A stretch of DNA of 64,000 nt, from NCBI RefSeq assembly GCF_009914755.1, contig NC_060934.1, one strand, 5' to 3'. Both the position numbers and the translations under genes were made by a program. The stretch comes from the human T2T-CHM13v2.0 reference genome, Homo sapiens. The notes beneath the pieces were generated by a model. The model was given only the letters and a program-made list of their open reading frames with translations, made no database searches and was not told where the DNA came from. This document shows, one piece after another, positions 10,378 to 64,000 of this stretch (the first letter of the stretch is position 1; the number at the start of each line of letters is the position of its first letter).

Positions 10378-11597
10378 AGCTCTGAGGGATCTAGGTCAAT
10401 ATGGGAAAGGTTCTGAAAGGCTGCCATGTGAAGCCAGCCCCCCATGGGGGTGAGGAAGGAGTGCCAAGGAAGACCAGTGAGGACCCCTGGAGCCAGCTGG
10501 AGAGGGCAGAGAACCCAGAGGCCCAGGGTATTCTGAGGCATGTCATGCTTACACCCTATGGGGCATCAGGACCCAGGGGAGAACTTCAGAGTCCACAGCC
10601 TGTGCATGTCTCTGCAAGCTTTCATCTGTCAGAGGAGAAGCAGGCCATCATGGCATCAAGCAGAAGAGAACATCCAGGGGCACCCTTTCATTCCATCATG
10701 AGGTTAACGGAGGCAAAGCTTTTCTATTTGGAAGAGGTGGAGTGGGCATCACAGTTGGCTTCCCAATCCCAGCATTACGGCCGGCTGGCTCCGCCTCACC
10801 ATTTCCCCTCTGGCAGCCTCCAAGACTCATCCAAGGAACAGGGACCATGACACTTGCCTTGCTTGTCTCATGGGGTCCTGTAACGTCCAATGAGAATCAC
10901 GTGAAAGCATTGAAAGTGGCTTCAAACACATGGGTTGGGCCCAGTTTTATTGTCAATAAAATATAATCTTAAGGTTCTTCTTAGTTCTAATACTCTAAGA
11001 TTGGAAGTTCTAGATTCTTCTTTCCACATCTGCATACTTTCCGGCTCTGTGGTTTTACATTTGACCCAAACCAGGGCTTACATCATCTTTGAAGATGCCG
11101 TCGATTTTGTGGTTCCTCTGGCAGATGGTGAGTGACGCCACCACACCTGCTTCTCCACATCTCATGCTTTTCATCGACCAACAGCAGCCTTGCCCCTGAA
11201 GCTGGATGCACCTGTTGAATATTCCTCCATTTTCCTATTGCTGTGCCTTTCCTGGAGTCACTTCTTCCATCTGCAAAGCCTCTTCCACTCTAAAAAGTCT
11301 ACCTTCACAGAAGAATTTTTGTTTGCCATCTCCCCTACTTAAGTCTGGTGATATATTTTTTCCTTTCAGCTCTTGCACTTTTAATTGGAATAACATTCAC
11401 TTGGACATTTTTTGAATGTACAGCTTGTGTCTTTTCATCTGTTCATCCATTCATCATCAATCCATTCTACCTCTGAAGAAACCCCAGAAAGTGGCTCATC
11501 AGGTTTCTGGGGGTTGGGACTTCTCTATGTTTAGTACCCACTGCCATGCTTGACAAAGACCTGCACATCCAGAGCACACATGGTCTGTGATATCAAC

Positions 11598-25513: not shown

Positions 25514-28165
25514 GCTGTAAATCGACTCATTTTTGTAAATTTGCTATAAAATCTAACATTTGCCAAATCACAGTTTGGTTACATAGCAGGGGAACCTGCA
25601 GAATGTCTGAGTGATCCCCAGTTTCTGAAATAACAACGTGTAAGCGTTCTCAGGATCAGAACGCCGCCAGAGGACGTTAAAGAAAAGAGGCTTATCTGTC
25701 ACTACAGATGGGGGCAGCATGAAAAGTTAATTCTTGTCTTAGTGCAGGGACACGTCTTTGGAAGGATGTGGTTTCCGTGGGTTTTCTTTTCTTTGCTACA
25801 ATTGTGGTAATTTCCAGGGCTCCTAGCTCAACTGAAAGGTTCATGGATTGCAGCATTTTTGAGAGCTTCAGATGAAGCAGTTTCTGAATAAAATGCTTGA
25901 AATTAAAAACTTTCTTAGATGGATTTTGCCTTAAAACTATGGAAATACCAGGATGACATACTTTTTAAAAAGTATCAAGTTCAAGGAGTTTTTCTTTTTA
26001 ATTTTAAATGATAATAATATCTTGTAGTTAGTATGGTACTTTCTCCAAAAAAGATCCAAACTTCTCTGCAAGTGCTATTATTGTTATTATTATTATTTTT
26101 CACGTTATCCTTAGGAAGCAAAAAAGGAGAACCAGTGTCACAAAGAAATGTTAGGTGACTTGTTCAAAGTAACTCACACACTCATGCCCTGAAGCCATAA
26201 CCGGAAGTAGAGCTTTGTGTGTTCTATGAATAGAAAGTGAAACTCAGTTTTCTTTTTCATAAAAGAAAAATTTCAAAGTGATATTGACCAAGAATGTTCA
26301 ACTGGTGCATATTGGGAGTGTGGGAGTCAAGGGCAGTGATGTGAATCCAGGAACACTAGCGTTCTGCCTCTTGGCATCACCCTGGGAGGCCTCTCTTCAG
26401 AGGCCTGCAAAACCACGGCGGCCTGCCCTCAAATCCAACCTGAGGGAACGACCCAGAGACAGAGCTGTTCCTATAGGATCTAGAGCTACTTAGGTGTGAA
26501 ATAGTAACACTACTTAAATGTCAGAATACAGATCGGCCTTTCAGAATTCAAAGGAGACACAGAGGAAGGTAGACTTTAGTTCACTTTTAATTTTTAAGGG
26601 AAAATTATTTCCTTGAAATTAAAAAGAAATAGCATCCTTACTGTGTTAGATGCATCTTTCCTTTCCAAACAAATTTTAGAAATAAATCCTCTTATTTTTC
26701 CACAGTTTTATCAGAGATAGAACACAGAAACTTTGGATACTTGAGTTATTAATCTTTCTTTTACTGCAGCATAACTAAAAAGAGGGAAACTGTTTCAGTG
26801 TTTATTTTTCCCTGTGTTTCAAAGTTTTATGGTTAATTATTTTTTTCTAATTGTTTTAAATCTACTTGTAAGTGGATAGTTAAAAGATTTATGACAACTC
26901 TTCTTGTAGACAAATTTTATTGTGGATTTTCCTATTTTTTTACTTTTTAAAATGTAAGTAATGGAAACTGTTAAAAATCTAAGTTGGAAATCTAGTAGTG
27001 CAAAAGTTGGCTGGCATCCGCACTGAAGGGGGTACTGAGAAGGGATCGTGCAATTTCAAGCCCTGCAGACTTTGTAAGACAGAAAATGTAAATATTAACA
27101 ACAAAGAAATGTTAGAAAAAAAGTAAAAGAAAGAAGAGCTAGCCCTTCTTTCCTCTTGCCAAGACAGCAGCCTCTCAGAATGCTGATCTACGTTAGACCC
27201 TGAGCCAGTAATTTATGCCAGAGCCTGGATGATGTACAAAGTCATTTTGATCTAGCACACAGAAAATTCATTGTGAAGATTCTTTTGATTTGAGCCTCAT
27301 TCAGATTCAGGTTCAGATTTCATGAATTATCCTGTACATCTATGTCCCCAGACGGTGCCGTCCCATTAGGGCCCCTGGTTTTACAGCTCCCAGCCCCTCT
27401 GCCTGTAACTCTTACTCTCTGTCCTGGGCAGGGGTAAAGTGGGTGCCTCAGAGCCCTGTTGATAAACGGCAGAGCTGGGCTTGAACTTCGGAATCCAAGT
27501 CCACAGGAATTTTCACATTTTGTAGCTTCCTAAATGGCTTTATCATATTTTCACCCTTCCATAGGTGATATATCCCTCATCTAGGAACTTTAAAAACTTT
27601 AACAATTTAATCCAAATGACCCTAATTAATAACAAGTGAATACCTGTCCTCAGAATCTCCTGAATAATCTGGTATTCAACAGGTGCGCTCTTTGGAGGCA
27701 GAGAGCAGATGAATAACTTCCTTTAAAAAATAACAATGCCCTGGAGAAGTACATAGTTAATTTATCTTATCTGATGTCTACACTAGTATACACAGGTAAC
27801 TGTCCTCCCAAGAAAGGTCATTCCCAACATGTTCCCAGAACAAAGCATTATCCATATCACGTATCAATCGTTGCCTTTTGCATTCACTTGTGGTATTTAA
27901 TCAGTTACTTTGACAAGCAAGGTTTGAATAATTAAGACATCTCAAAAACAACAACTCGGGGTGTTGGAAAAGGTGATTCAAGCTTCTTCCTTTGTTTCTT
28001 TCCTCTTTCTAAAAGGACTCAGTTCCTTGAGATCTGAGTCTTGAGCCAGTCAGATTTACATTTCATGTAAACATTCTCTGCTGAAGTTTTTTTTTCTCTC
28101 CCAGCACCAATGCTGTGGATGCACTTGTGGCTCAGGTCTTGGTAAAGCATCCCAGCTGCACGGAA

Positions 28166-58790: not shown

Positions 58791-59558
58791 AGGAATTATA
58801 TATGGTAAGCCGAAACTCAGAAAGCACCATAAATGTATAAAGTTAAACTTGCTTCTTCTTGGTAGTAAAATTAATTTAGGAAAAAATGAAGTGAATTTAC
58901 CATCAGTAAGTTTACATGTCCATGCTGTGACTTAGGATTTTCTAAGTAGGGGGATTTGATTCACATACACAGCCCTGACAGCCTGTCTCAGCACATCGTA
59001 CCGGGAAATTTCACTTCTGTGGCCAAAGTCCACATGTAACATGGAATCAAAACCCTTTAGCAATGTGTTTTCTCACCTTTTCTTGTTCCTAAAAGGACTT
59101 GAGGTGACTAACTTCAAGTGTTAGCATTTTGTTACTAATTTTATGGAATATATTGATTGACTTCTTACTTATTTTGTATTCTACTGATAATATGGTAGCT
59201 TCTTAGAGCACATCATTTAACCATAGACAATGTGTACACACATAACCACACATCAACAGTCTTTTGTATTTAGACTGAATTCCCAAACTAAACTAAAGAC
59301 AGAGTATAAGAGCTTTGGGCATATGGATTCACATCACTTAAAACAAGTGCTATAAATGTTTTATATTTCTACGTTTTTCCGGCCCAGATAGTGTCTTTTA
59401 AAGTCATGCCTGAGCACCTCTGAGAATTTTAAAACAATTTTGTGCCTCTCTTTTCTCCTGATTCTCTTCTACAATAATTGCAAAGGTAAAATAAGCTGCA
59501 TTTGAGGAGAAGGCCATGCCCTCCTCACCCCCAAACAGGAAGAAGAAATGTCACTTGC

Positions 59559-59619
59559 CACTCATTTCCAGAAAGTATCTTGCATTCATTAGCATTCGGC
59601 CTTGAGGTTTCAGCTCTAA
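59559..59619 (-). CDS. PRKCQ: PRKCQ exon 4 (61 bp), LELKPQGRMLMNARYFLEMS
   Basis: ccag|TTAGAG acceptor; non-canonical G|GCAAGT donor; 61 bp keeps the frame into exon 5. Confidence 0.95.
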
Positions 59620-62205: not shown

Positions 62206-63117
62206 ATAGAAAGTAAGAAGCAGAAAGTCAGGATTCTCTCCTTTGGCACAGATGATATAAACATTTGAAAACATTTTCTGGATTTCAGATCATGTAAAAG
62301 CAGTTTCTTACTGATATATTTTCTTTTATTTTGTGCCCCAGAAATTTTCATTGGAATTTTTTTAACGCTTTGATTATTTTACTCCTCCTTTTAACATTTC
62401 TAAATATTTACTACCATAATCCAGGTTTTTGACAACTTGGTGTGCTAAGATGAATTGTGTATGATGCACTTCTTAGTCAAAGTAAGCTAAGTTCATTACA
62501 GCTGAAAAAAATTGTAGGAATTGTCAAAGTATAGAGAGAGAAGACCAAACATTAAATGGATCTTTGTTCTATCCTCTCGCATTCTGATAGCTTTTTACTT
62601 ACTTTAAAAGTGTATTGATGAAGTTTAATAAAATTAAGATTTTGATATCTTAACGTGTTCTGAGTCTACTGGGTTAAACAAGTAATTTCTAAGTTAAAAA
62701 GCATTAGAGTTGTTGTTTCATAAATCTTGATTAAGTTTTATATACAAATATTCTTCCCAAAACTGAAAAAGTGAATGAAACTGACAACTGGATTGATAGA
62801 CAAAAACTCATCCCCCACTTAAGGGGAATTTGAGATATTCCAAGCCTGCTTTAACAGTTTTAAATAATTTATCATAGTCTAAGAGACTTTCTACATCTCT
62901 TTGATGTAGGCATCAAAGAGATCTGAAGATGTCAATGTGTTCTACAGCCCATAAAGAATAACCATCGCCATTATCAAATCACCAGTAGGAAGTGGTAGGG
63001 AGCCTGGTGACCTGAGGCCAGTGTAATCACACCCTCAGATTGACATGGGAGTTCTGAGCCAGTCATCGGCTACCATCATGCTTATCCCTTATGTGCATAC
63101 ACTTTATGCAACGTTAC

Positions 63118-63317
63118 CCATATTTCTGTCTTCCCGTTGTTCTTCCTGCACCTCTCAGCCAGCGAGTAGAGCTCCACGGTGGTTTCAGAGATGAGGTCCA
63201 CGTTTTTGCCTTTCACAATGATCTGCATGACTCTTCCCTTGTTGATATGGGCATCAAAAGTGCTGTCCCAGGGTGGGTACATGGTAGGCTTTTTCTGGAT
63301 ATACATCTGCCCGTTCT
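63118..63317 (-). CDS. PRKCQ: PRKCQ exon 3 (200 bp), C2-like domain ENGQMYIQKK...KTEIW, includes Tyr90
   Basis: tag|AGAACGGG acceptor and TGG|GTAACG donor; overlaps ORF 63082..63306. Confidence 0.97.
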
Positions 63318-63581
63318 CTAGGAACAGAAACGTAAGGTCTCATTATTCCTTCAGCCAGGCCTGGAAAATAATTCAGTTCAACTCAACAGTAGCACCTGCT
63401 CCCTCTGTTCTCTGGGATATAGAATTCTGTTGGGAAGACAAAAGTAGCACATAAACAATCAGAGACAATATGGGACAGAATGAGACAGTCCCCGGGTCCA
63501 GATGCAAGGTGATGCATTGAACCTTATAAGTCCAGCGTTGATAATTCAGACAACAATCTGCTAATGCCTTGGACTGGAAAT

Positions 63582-64000
63582 TGTTACCAAAACACCAGGC
63601 ATTCTAAGTTCTGCTGCTCACCGCACAGAAAGCCAATGACTGAGATGACGAGAATTGCCAAGGAAGAAGGCTTTAGTTGGGTGCTGCAGCCGAGGAGATG
63701 AGAGCTCAGTCTGAAGTCCATCTCCATGACCAACTAAAACTAGGGATTTATATAGCAGGGAAGAAATGTAACTTTGTATGAGAAAACAGGAACTCGGGAG
63801 GGGTAAGTAAGCAATCATGATGAACCAGGGGCCTGGCGCTTCAGTCTCTGGATGCCATGATCTGGTGAGTTTCAGTTCTTTAATATTTTTTTTGAGAGGT
63901 GTGGGGATCCTTTCTTGAGGAAGAAACTCAGATAAAACAAATGTAAATTCCAAGCTTTAAGATCAGAAGGGTCCATTTCTATAATCAGCCAAAAACAACT
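63582..64000 (-). mobile_element. LOR1-like ERV1 LTR in the same orientation as PRKCQ; runs off the window end
   Basis: Minus-strand 3' end ...cctggtgttttggtaaca; TATATAAA at 63754-63747; resembles the recalled LOR1 consensus. Confidence 0.75.

What the first reader, a model, noticed from the sequence alone, without database searches (positions are those of the whole stretch)
63616..63755. Sense LTR supplies TATA, ATG and a splice donor in frame with PRKCQ exon 3
Seen on the minus strand: TATATAAA (63754-63747), then GTC-ATG-GAG-ATG-G (63727, 63721) opening a stop-free 35-codon frame MEMDFRLSSHLLGCSTQLKPSSLAILVISVIGFLC plus one G. The donor is GCG|GTGAGC (63622/63621). Phase 1 matches exon 3 (G|AG AAC), about 300 bp downstream, and the LTR poly(A) signal looks degraded (ACTAAA). 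Established (recalled): a LOR1a LTR acts as an alternative IRF5 promoter in Hodgkin lymphoma. Inference: an LTR-driven PKC-theta could carry a hydrophobic new N-terminus. Because the ATGs sit right at the predicted TSS (~63724), translation might instead start at Met44 and give a truncated C2-like domain.
Basis: partly seen in the sequence, partly recalled or inferred. Interest (0 to 1): 0.7.

Follow-up and report, generated by a model that had tools for sequence, protein, structure and literature searches.

The report
Ordinary solo LTR in PRKCQ intron
A 446-base remnant of an ancient retrovirus lies in the same direction as the PRKCQ gene just upstream of its third exon and still carries promoter-like, start-codon and splice-like motifs, but these are inherited family features and nothing found here shows that the cell uses them.

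Summary
The natural exon 2 also ends in phase 1.

The stretch is a 446-bp solo LTR (window 64027-63582, minus strand) with TG..CA ends and a 4-bp duplication. It belongs to a high-copy family: 1362 first-look candidates, 40 of 40 scored at 80-84%. In a tree it is a sister subfamily of the LTRs at the published LOR1a sites of IRF5 and IL13RA1.

TATA, the second ATG, the open frame and the GTGAGC motif are family features; all together they survive in 11 of 39 other copies. Only the first ATG (0 of 39) and the change of the family's ATTAAA to ACTAAA are private.

No evidence of use was found. RefSeq has no exon there, four literature searches found no report, and two TE-transcript catalogues have no entry. 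CAGE and junction data could not be reached.

Verdict: a real but ordinary solo LTR with untested latent promoter potential.

The parts
63582..64000 (-). Solo LTR, 446 bp in all. It begins (TG) at window-equivalent 64027, 27 bp beyond the window's end, and ends (CA) at 63582. It is in sense orientation to PRKCQ and lies inside the 3821-nt intron 2.
   Evidence: blastn against 7 other copies bounds the homology at 64030..63577. 20 of 39 copies align from position 1 and 33 of 39 end at 446. TG..CA ends were read. It is the only copy of the family in the window.
63578..63581 (-). 3' copy of the 4-bp target-site duplication ATTT. The 5' copy is at window-equivalent 64031-64028, outside the window.
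   Evidence: Read in L001. Among 23 of 39 other copies with TG and CA aligned at both ends, 7 have identical 4-bp flanks. That a 4-bp duplication is the ERV1 hallmark is established knowledge.
63747..63754 (-). TATA box of the LTR (TATATAAA), at the end of U3.
   Evidence: Identical in 22 of 39 sister copies. TATAWA is present in 30 of 39 of this subfamily and 17 of 21 of the LOR1a-type subfamily.
63725..63727 (-). ATG1, private to this copy. It lies at or just upstream of the predicted start site.
   Evidence: 0 of 39 sister copies and 0 of 21 LOR1a-type copies have ATG here; AGG is found in 26 and 15 respectively. The start site is inferred from the TATA spacing only.
63719..63721 (-). ATG2, ancestral to the family. 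It lies within a few bases of the predicted start site.
   Evidence: ATG in 35 of 39 sister copies and 18 of 21 LOR1a-type copies.
63623..63727 (-). Stop-free 35-codon frame (MEMDF...GFLC) through R and U5. No known protein family matches it.
   Evidence: Pfam gives no match. From ATG2 the same frame is open with the same length in 21 of 39 copies. The hydrophobic stretch LAILVISVIGFLC has a mean Kyte-Doolittle value of 3.02 over 13 residues, and 1.71 over 19.
63672..63677 (-). Degraded LTR poly(A) hexamer, ACTAAA.
   Evidence: ATTAAA in 34 of 39 sister copies and 16 of 21 LOR1a-type copies; AATAAA in the IRF5 copy.
63616..63624 (-). Donor-like site GCG|GTGAGC in U5 (GT at 63621-63620), in phase 1.
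   Evidence: GTRAG at this place in 26 of 39 sister copies and 9 of 21 LOR1a-type copies. The same 9-mer, inside a 22-nt block with no mismatch, is found in the IRF5 LTR. Strength.
63118..63317 (-). PRKCQ exon 3, entered in phase 1. It encodes PKC_C2 profile positions 37-102 of 109.
   Evidence: Hub annotation.
63304..63306 (-). Met44 codon, the first ATG after the LTR's two in a hypothetical LTR-initiated mRNA. Its context is weak.
   Evidence: C at -3, T at +4. The next in-frame ATG is at 63282-63280 (Met52, A at -3).

Best explanation
The stretch is the R-U5 part and core promoter of a 446-bp solitary LTR. It is what remains of an ERV1-class (gammaretrovirus-like) provirus that inserted in sense orientation into PRKCQ intron 2 tens of millions of years ago and was later reduced to one LTR.

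It belongs to a ~446-bp subfamily that is sister to the LOR1a LTRs. The TATA box, the second ATG, the stop-free frame, the ATTAAA-type poly(A) signal and the GTGAGC motif in U5 were all carried in by the virus and are seen in many sister copies. Only the first ATG and the weakening of the poly(A) hexamer arose in this copy. The fit of the donor's phase to exon 3 is a one-in-three coincidence.

Most likely the LTR is silent or negligibly active in normal tissues and is drifting neutrally. It therefore has a latent, untested capacity to start a PRKCQ transcript, not a shown one.

Shown: identity as an LTR, its limits, its family relations, the motifs and the frame. Inferred: the start site (from TATA spacing), the age, and the silence.
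For: - LTR identity: 1362 first-look candidates, and 40 of 40 scored hits at 80-84% over about 320 bp. Homology is bounded at 64030..63577. TG..CA ends and ATTT|...|ATTT flanks. All 39 other copies examined are solo, and 7 of the 23 with both ends aligned have identical 4-bp flanks.
- Family: the LTRs at the published LOR1a sites align at 70% (IL13RA1, over the full length 1-446) and 73% (IRF5, positions 262-415). In the tree of 62 rows, the 40 PRKCQ-type rows form one side of a 100/100 branch, and IRF5 and IL13RA1 fall on the other side.
- Inherited motifs: counts. The complete ATG2 + open frame + phase 1 + GTRAG set survives in 11 of 39 copies.
- Neutral drift: this copy agrees with the commonest base of its relatives at 394 of 445 columns (0.885; median of the others 0.865; it ranks above 23 of 39). 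In the core promoter the figure is 0.863 against a median of 0.878. Terminal branch 0.13 against a median of 0.1. K2P distance to the others 0.233.
- No sign of use: no exon of any of the 9 RefSeq transcripts lies in the LTR (hub table). Of the 13,123 rows of TE-fusion Table ST3 of PMC10614793, the only PRKCQ-like row is PRKCQ-AS1/AluSx. No chr10 entry near 6.511 Mb appears among 16,462 TE-derived transcripts from 2596 long-read data sets (PMC12326599 file 3). Searches found no paper reporting it.
Against: - Absence of evidence is weak here. I had no CAGE, RNA-seq junction or methylation data. The main catalogues (Jang 2019, Brocks 2017, Shah 2023, Babaian 2016) are not held.
- PMC12326599 file 3 lists only cell-type-enriched transcripts. 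My hg38 position rests on an offset estimated from a recalled gene end.
- The motifs are in good shape. The TATA box is intact. The donor ranks in the middle of PRKCQ's own donors. No ATG outside the PRKCQ frame lies in the would-be first exon. The poly(A) signal that could abort such a transcript is weakened.
- A relative with the identical 9-mer and near-identical TATA block is a proven promoter at IRF5 (PMC5134097).
- The 39 copies compared are the best-scoring 39 of 1362 candidates, so they are biased towards copies like this one.
Confidence: 0.8

Rival explanations
1. The LTR is a real, context-dependent alternative promoter and first exon of PRKCQ, used for example in tumours, germ cells, placenta or after DNMT/HDAC inhibition. 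Transcription would start about 30 bp after the TATA box. The 100-nt LTR exon would splice from 63622 to exon 3. The protein would either begin at ATG2/ATG1, with a 33-35-residue hydrophobic leader replacing residues 1-39, or more likely begin at Met44 or Met52. In every case the first third of the C2-like domain is lost.
For: - TATA, donor and phase are all present, and the donor is of ordinary strength.
- No out-of-frame ATG lies before Met44, and the poly(A) hexamer is weakened.
- The sister family's IRF5 copy is a proven promoter and carries the same 9-mer (PMC5134097 passages).
- Intronic sense LTRs do drive truncated kinases: LTR16B2-ALK and MLT1-ERBB4 (PMC5134097 passages).
- Mouse Prkcq already has a testis-specific mRNA with its own exon between exons 7 and 8 (PMC2193906 passage).
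- Very short 5' UTRs favour leaky scanning (abstract of PMC13219423 as shown in the listing).
Against: - No annotated exon (hub table), no entry in the two catalogues searched, and no paper.
- The same motif set exists in many sister copies (11 of 39), so its presence predicts little.
- The copy drifts like its relatives.
- The IRF5 copy's activity is ascribed in part to an IRF element created at its own insertion junction (PMC5134097 passage), which this copy does not share.
- Exon 3 encodes PKC_C2 positions 37-102 of 109, so the product would lack a foldable C2-like domain and its stability is doubtful.
Confidence: 0.08
2. The LTR acts as an enhancer or other cis-regulatory element of PRKCQ (for example in T cells) without producing a stable chimeric transcript.
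For: LTRs of this general group carry transcription-factor sites (PMC5134097). PMC11602805 (section 17 read) lists PRKCQ among T-cell genes whose gene-neighbouring DNase sites hold 10% or more TE sequence in T-cell lines only.
Against: That paper does not name the element, and 'gene-neighbouring' need not mean this intronic site. The RefSeq functional elements in the window are at 11285-11454 and 26130-26309, not here (hub table). No conservation above the family background. No chromatin data could be examined.
Confidence: 0.07
3. The LTR is occasionally exonised inside normal PRKCQ transcripts, either as a cassette (poison) exon or as a premature terminal exon. This is how a LOR1a LTR is used at IL13RA1.
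For: Sense orientation. Candidate acceptors at 63735 and 63685 lie upstream of the donor. There is a precedent of a LOR1a LTR used as an alternative terminal exon (PMC7617988, abstract and passages).
Against: The candidate cassette exons are 112 nt (frameshift) and 62 nt (in-frame stop), and neither is annotated. The poly(A) hexamer is ACTAAA instead of the family's ATTAAA. PRKCQ's exon 2 donor and exon 3 acceptor are strong.
Confidence: 0.03

Closest known systems
LOR1a LTR as alternative promoter of IRF5 (Hodgkin lymphoma, B-lymphoblastoid lines)
   Same: Both are ERV1-class LTRs of a related family in sense orientation to the gene. The T2T element at the IRF5 site shares the TATA block and a 22-nt block with the identical GCG|GTGAGC 9-mer. 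[quoted passage not shown]
   Different: The IRF5 LTR lies upstream of the gene and yields the full-length protein. It falls in the sister subfamily in the tree and keeps AATAAA. Its activity is tied to an IRF element formed at its own insertion junction. For PRKCQ no transcript is known. Which donor the IRF5 chimera uses I could not read, because the original paper is not held.
LTR16B2-ALK (ALK-ATI) and MLT1C/MLT1H-ERBB4: intronic LTR promoters giving N-terminally truncated kinases
   Same: A sense solitary LTR inside an intron. Translation would start at an in-frame ATG of the next exon, giving a kinase without its N-terminal regulatory part (PMC5134097, passages read).
   Different: Those LTRs are ERVL/MaLR, their use is shown by RNA and protein data, and the truncation removes whole extracellular and transmembrane regions. 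Here only about 40-50 residues of a C2-like domain would be lost, and use is not shown.
IL13RA1-LOR1a isoform
   Same: A LOR1a-type LTR in sense orientation contributes exon sequence to an immune signalling gene (PMC7617988, abstract and passages). The T2T element at that site aligns to the whole PRKCQ LTR at 70%.
   Different: There the LTR supplies an acceptor and a terminal exon, not a promoter or donor. It lies downstream of the gene and belongs to the sister subfamily.
Mouse PKC-theta II (testis)
   Same: An mRNA of the same gene that starts from its own exon inside the gene and so lacks N-terminal coding exons (PMC2193906 passage citing Niino 2001).
   Different: It is a mouse isoform, the exon lies between exons 7 and 8, it removes far more of the regulatory region, and no LTR origin is stated in the passage read.

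Membership tests
ERV1-class solitary LTR | Dispersed multi-copy element with sharp, shared ends | tested here: met
   1362 first-look candidates; 40 of 40 scored hits at 80-84% on 16 different contigs (chromosomes). 20 of 39 copies align from position 1 and 33 of 39 end at 446.
ERV1-class solitary LTR | TG...CA termini and a 4-bp target-site duplication | tested here: met
   ATTT|TG...CA|ATTT. 23 of 39 other copies have TG and CA aligned at both ends, and 7 of these have identical 4-bp flanks. That 4 bp marks ERV1 is established knowledge.
ERV1-class solitary LTR | U3-R-U5 order: TATA box, then poly(A) hexamer about 70-80 nt later, then U5 | tested here: met
   TATATAAA at 63754 and the hexamer at 63677. 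Both are conserved in the family.
ERV1-class solitary LTR | Linked internal region with primer-binding site and gag/pol of the class | tested here: inconclusive
   None of the 39 copies examined is followed by a shared downstream sequence; all are solo. The only shared flank, L006/L031, is an X/Y duplicate. No proviral copy was found, so the class rests on the duplication length and on kinship to LOR1a.
LOR1a (RepeatMasker/Repbase name) | Homology to elements that papers name LOR1a | tested here: met
   70% over positions 1-446 with the only matching element in the 60 kb fetched across IL13RA1's expected 3' end and beyond. 73% over positions 262-415 with the element about 5 kb upstream of IRF5's first IRF-domain exon. 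That these are the published elements is inferred from position, because the papers give hg38 coordinates or no coordinates.
LOR1a (RepeatMasker/Repbase name) | Groups with named LOR1a copies rather than apart from them | tested here: not met
   In the tree of 62 rows, 40 of 40 PRKCQ-type rows are separated by a 100/100 branch from the IL13RA1 and IRF5 elements and 20 relatives. The best-40 lists do not overlap. Lengths are about 446 against about 498 bp. A sister subfamily is indicated. 'LOR1b' is only a guess from the name list in PMC5753468.
LOR1a (RepeatMasker/Repbase name) | Assignment by RepeatMasker/Dfam | not testable with these tools
   No repeat library is on hand, and the hub table gives no family names.
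LTR-derived alternative promoter of a host gene | Sense LTR with promoter motif, a donor and a compatible downstream acceptor | tested here: met
LTR-derived alternative promoter of a host gene | Annotated or published transcript starting in the LTR | tested here: not met
   None of the 9 RefSeq transcripts has an exon there (hub table). Searches and catalogues found none.
LTR-derived alternative promoter of a host gene | Start-site signal (CAGE/5'RACE) and LTR-to-exon junction reads | not testable with these tools

The most novel reading that the evidence does not exclude
The LTR is a silenced but competent alternative promoter. On derepression (T-cell or other tumours, germ line, placenta, DNMT/HDAC inhibition) it starts a transcript whose 100-nt LTR exon splices in frame to exon 3. 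The result is a PKC-theta whose C2-like regulatory domain is broken. It would be either a chimera with a 33-35-residue hydrophobic leader that could mislocalise the kinase, or a form starting at Met44/Met52. This would add a serine/threonine kinase of T-cell signalling to the short list of LTR-truncated kinases.
Probability: 0.07. Interest if true: 0.55.

Novelty: already known. Interest (0 to 1): 0.2.

Why it matters
PKC-theta is a central kinase of T-cell receptor signalling, and its N-terminal C2-like domain is regulatory. A cryptic LTR promoter that removes part of that domain would be a new route to deregulated PKC-theta, and a possible tumour-specific junction or peptide, in the manner of ALK-ATI or LTR-ERBB4.

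As things stand, the finding shows that a complete-looking TATA + ATG + in-frame donor set can be plain inheritance from an LTR family. About a quarter of the sister copies examined (11 of 39) keep the same set. Such arrangements near exons should therefore be ranked by expression evidence, not by motif completeness.

Tried and rejected
- Papers not held: Jang 2019, Brocks 2017 and Shah 2023 by DOI, and Babaian 2016. Their supplements may bear on whether a PRKCQ-LTR transcript exists and on which donor the IRF5 chimera uses.
- Reference lists of PMC12350819 and PMC11359688 gave no usable ids for these papers.
- One search was a badly framed search: none of the 20 papers listed (of 265 found) holds PRKCQ. 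I took nothing from it except one abstract on short 5' UTRs.
- PMC6368290 names PRKCQ only in a list of genes within a rearranged segment.
- PMC11602805 names PRKCQ only in a gene list on TE-rich DNase sites.
- No PRKCQ in the supplements of PMC12060413 (1 file, 9,735 characters) or PMC6771403 (7 files; file 1 not searchable).
- My first look in PMC12326599 by gene name was pointless, because its tables carry no gene names. I repeated it by coordinate.
- I guessed that sister copy L016 on X was the IL13RA1 LOR1a. This was wrong: the receptor's Ig-domain exons lie about 1.4 Mb away.
- Rfam gave only two sub-threshold chance matches in 62500-64000.
- Pfam finds nothing in the LTR-encoded peptide.
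- The window file carries no soft-masking to consult.
- MaxEnt splice scores could not be computed. I used consensus matches and U1 pairing energy instead.
- Rejected idea: that loss of the poly(A) hexamer shows selection. 5 of 39 sister copies also lack ATTAAA, so the loss is unremarkable.

Full report
**1. The observation**

- TATATAAA at 63754-63747.
- ATG at 63727 and 63721.
- A 105-nt frame without a stop (MEMDFRLSSHLLGCSTQLKPSSLAILVISVIGFLC), then G at 63622.
- Donor GCG|GTGAGC, with GT at 63621-63620.
- ACTAAA at 63677-63672.

A script join of 63622 to 63317 continues as ...GFLC-E-NGQMYIQKK.

To test the phase independently, I located the upstream coding exon with the PKC_C2 profile (PF21494) and read it. 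Its ATG is at window-equivalent 67256. It encodes 39 codons plus a G, has donor CAG|GTAAGC, and gives the junction codon G|AG. Exon 3 is therefore entered in phase 1, the first ATG in it is codon 44, and intron 2 is 3821 nt long.

The exon 3 translation equals residues 48-113 of chain 2enj_A, 'Protein kinase C theta type'. 'Exon 3' fits the hub's count: 18 exons, 13 of them in the window. The coding exon just upstream starts a few bases before the ATG, with exon 1 presumably at the gene's 5' end. I did not see the full exon list.

**2. What it is**

A search of the window's own assembly with 63560-63900 gave 1362 first-look candidates. All 40 scored hits are 80-84% identical over about 320 bp.

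Comparison with seven copies and their flanks bounds the homology at 64030..63577. The sequence there reads ATTT|TGAAAC...GGTAACA|ATTT. The element is thus 446 bp long, runs from 64027 to 63582 on the minus strand, has TG..CA ends and has a 4-bp target-site duplication. It runs 27 bp past the window's end.

All 39 other copies examined are solitary. 23 of 39 have both TG and CA aligned, and 7 of those have identical 4-bp flanks. A 4-bp duplication is the mark of ERV1-class elements (established knowledge). No proviral copy was found, so the internal region was not examined.

**3. Which family**

No repeat library is available, so I used two loci where papers place RepeatMasker-named LOR1a LTRs.

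- *IRF5.* The IRF-domain exons lie at C7:130255053 and 130258761. A partial sense element about 5 kb upstream (L043 524-711) matches positions 262-415 of the PRKCQ LTR at 73%. It has a near-identical TATA block, and a 22-nt block GGCTTTCTGTGCGGTGAGCAGC aligns without a mismatch.
- *IL13RA1.* The receptor's Ig-domain exons lie at C23:117.12 Mb. In the 60 kb fetched across the gene's expected 3' end and beyond, one element (L048 2554-3051, sense) aligns to the whole PRKCQ LTR at 70%.

That IL13RA1 element has its own set of about 498-bp relatives at 81-84%, and none of them is among the PRKCQ copy's best 40.

A maximum-likelihood tree of 62 rows puts all 40 PRKCQ-type copies on one side of a 100/100 branch. 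The IL13RA1 and IRF5 elements fall with 20 others on the other side.

The PRKCQ LTR is therefore a relative of LOR1a in a sister subfamily. PMC5753468 (passage) lists LOR1, LOR1a_LTR and LOR1B_LTR under LOR1I, so 'LOR1b' is a guess, not a result.

On age, the terminal branch is 0.13 and the mean K2P distance to the other copies is 0.233. This suggests an insertion some tens of millions of years old (inference, using a recalled neutral rate). It agrees with the review's remark that LOR1a copies predate the split of New World and Old World monkeys (PMC5134097 passage).

**4. Inherited or local?**

The comparison set is the 39 best-scoring hits, so it is biased towards copies like this one. 'Sister copies' are the 39 other members of this ~446-bp subfamily; 'LOR1a-type' are the 21 members of the ~498-bp subfamily.

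| Feature | Sister copies (of 39) | LOR1a-type (of 21) |
|---|---|---|
| TATATAAA identical | 22 | 15 |
| TATAWA present | 30 | 17 |
| ATG1 | 0 (AGG in 26) | 0 (AGG in 15) |
| ATG2 | 35 | 18 |
| ATTAAA hexamer | 34 | 16 |
| GT at the donor | 29 | not counted |
| GTRAG at the donor | 26 | 9 |
| ATG2 + open frame + phase 1 + GTRAG together | 11 | not counted |

The arrangement was brought in by the virus. Two things are private to this copy: ATG1, and ACTAAA in place of the family's ATTAAA. Loss of the hexamer is not unusual, since 5 of 39 sister copies also lack it.

The GTGAGC lies about 35 nt after the expected cleavage site, inside a U/GU-rich run. Its conservation in two subfamilies could therefore reflect a poly(A) downstream element as well as a viral splice donor. 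This is inference and was not tested.

**5. Chance**

On the window's minus strand there are 113 GTRAG sites. Six arrangements of ATG, 30 or more open codons and a phase-1 GTRAG occur, against 5.5 +/- 2.1 in 100 simulations. With a TATAWA within 60 nt upstream, only this one remains, against 0.09 expected. Descent from an LTR explains the excess. The phase match to exon 3 has a prior of one in three.

**6. Would it work?**

- *Donor strength.* It matches the consensus at 6 of 9 places, against 5-8 for PRKCQ's 13 donors in the window. Its pairing with the U1 5' end is -8.3 kcal/mol. That is rank 7 of 15, and 49 of 3336 GTs on the strand are as good or better.
- *Start site.* TATA spacing puts the start near 63724 (inference). 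ATG1 would then be at or before the cap, and ATG2 within a few bases of it.
- *Translation start.* No other ATG occurs in the LTR exon. The next are Met44 (C at -3, T at +4) and Met52 (A at -3). Very short 5' UTRs favour leaky scanning (abstract of PMC13219423 seen in the listing), so a start at Met44 or Met52 is the likelier outcome.
- *Product.* Exon 3 covers PKC_C2 positions 37-102 of 109. Any product would lack about the first third of the C2-like domain.
- *The leader.* If translated, it has a 13-residue stretch with a mean hydropathy of 3.02. That is short for a membrane helix: the best 19-residue window scores 1.71.
- *Use as an internal exon.* This would break the frame, giving 112 nt, or 62 nt with a stop.

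**7. Evidence of use**

None was found.
- The hub's RefSeq table shows no exon of any of 9 transcripts in the LTR.
- Full-text searches gave nothing relevant: PRKCQ + LTR + alternative promoter, 3 papers; PRKCQ + transposable element + chimeric transcript, 0 papers; PRKCQ + LTR + intron, 5 papers; PRKCQ + endogenous retrovir-, 19 papers with 15 listed, judged by title and abstract start only.
- Table ST3 of PMC10614793 (13,123 rows, held uncut) has only PRKCQ-AS1/AluSx.
- File 3 of PMC12326599 (16,462 TE-derived transcripts) has no chr10 entry at 6.5110-6.5115 Mb. My hg38 offset rests on a recalled gene end, and the table lists only cell-type-enriched transcripts.
- The supplements of PMC12060413 and PMC6771403 hold no PRKCQ (one file unsearchable).
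- The copy's drift from its relatives is typical. Agreement with the commonest base is 0.885 against a median of 0.865, and 0.863 against 0.878 in the core promoter.

Against my reading: the key catalogues and all CAGE and junction data were out of reach. The motifs are intact. A relative with the same 9-mer is a proven promoter at IRF5 (PMC5134097 and PMC12326599 passages).

**8. Comparison with the known**

The nearest cases in kinship are LOR1a-IRF5 and IL13RA1-LOR1a. The nearest in outcome are LTR16B2-ALK and MLT1-ERBB4. Mouse PKC-theta II shows that the gene tolerates an internal first exon (PMC2193906 passage).

Membership as an ERV1 solo LTR is met on ends, duplication, copy number and motif order. 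Membership in LOR1a proper is not met in the tree. Membership among 'LTR promoters of host genes' fails the one testable criterion (an annotated or published transcript), and the decisive criteria could not be tested.

**9. Verdict**

But it is an ordinary solo LTR whose complete-looking motif set is inherited. I put about 0.8 on 'silent or negligible, drifting', 0.08 on real promoter use, 0.07 on an enhancer role and 0.03 on exonisation. Interest is low (0.2). If the junction were found in tumours or germ cells, it would rise to about 0.55.

Noticed in passing
window 59557-59558 (minus strand, just below exon 59559-59619): The donor of this PRKCQ exon reads GTG|GCAAGT, a GC-AG intron instead of GT-AG. 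It has the second-weakest predicted U1 pairing (-5.2 kcal/mol) of the 15 donors compared.
   Followed up: no
window 63315-63317 (minus strand): Exon 3 begins TAG|AG|AAC. The hub lists other transcripts that use an acceptor 2 nt further in (exon 63118-63315). After exon 2 this would shift the frame, so those transcripts presumably have another upstream exon or are non-productive.
   Followed up: no
L043 668-689 (G000:C7:130249968-130249989) and window 63635-63614: A 22-nt U5 block (GGCTTTCTGTGCGGTGAGCAGC) is identical between the PRKCQ LTR and the LTR upstream of IRF5, although the two are only 73% alike overall. It might be a poly(A) downstream element or a viral splice donor.
   Followed up: partly
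L006 (G000:C23:90417945-90418272) and L031 (G000:C24:4870037-4870362): These two LTR copies have the same flanks and almost no difference (branch lengths 0 and 0.012, 100/100 support). They are one insertion present on both X and Y, as expected for the X-transposed region (recalled).
   Followed up: no
L007 (G000:C23:134438267-134441588): This sister copy matches in three pieces spread over about 1.3 kb, so it seems to be interrupted by later insertions. It also has the longest terminal branch of its group (0.29).
   Followed up: no
PRKCQ as a whole: PMC11602805 (Table 4, section 17 read) lists PRKCQ among T-cell genes whose gene-neighbouring DNase sites contain 10% or more TE sequence in T-cell lines only. 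The element concerned is not named there.
   Followed up: partly
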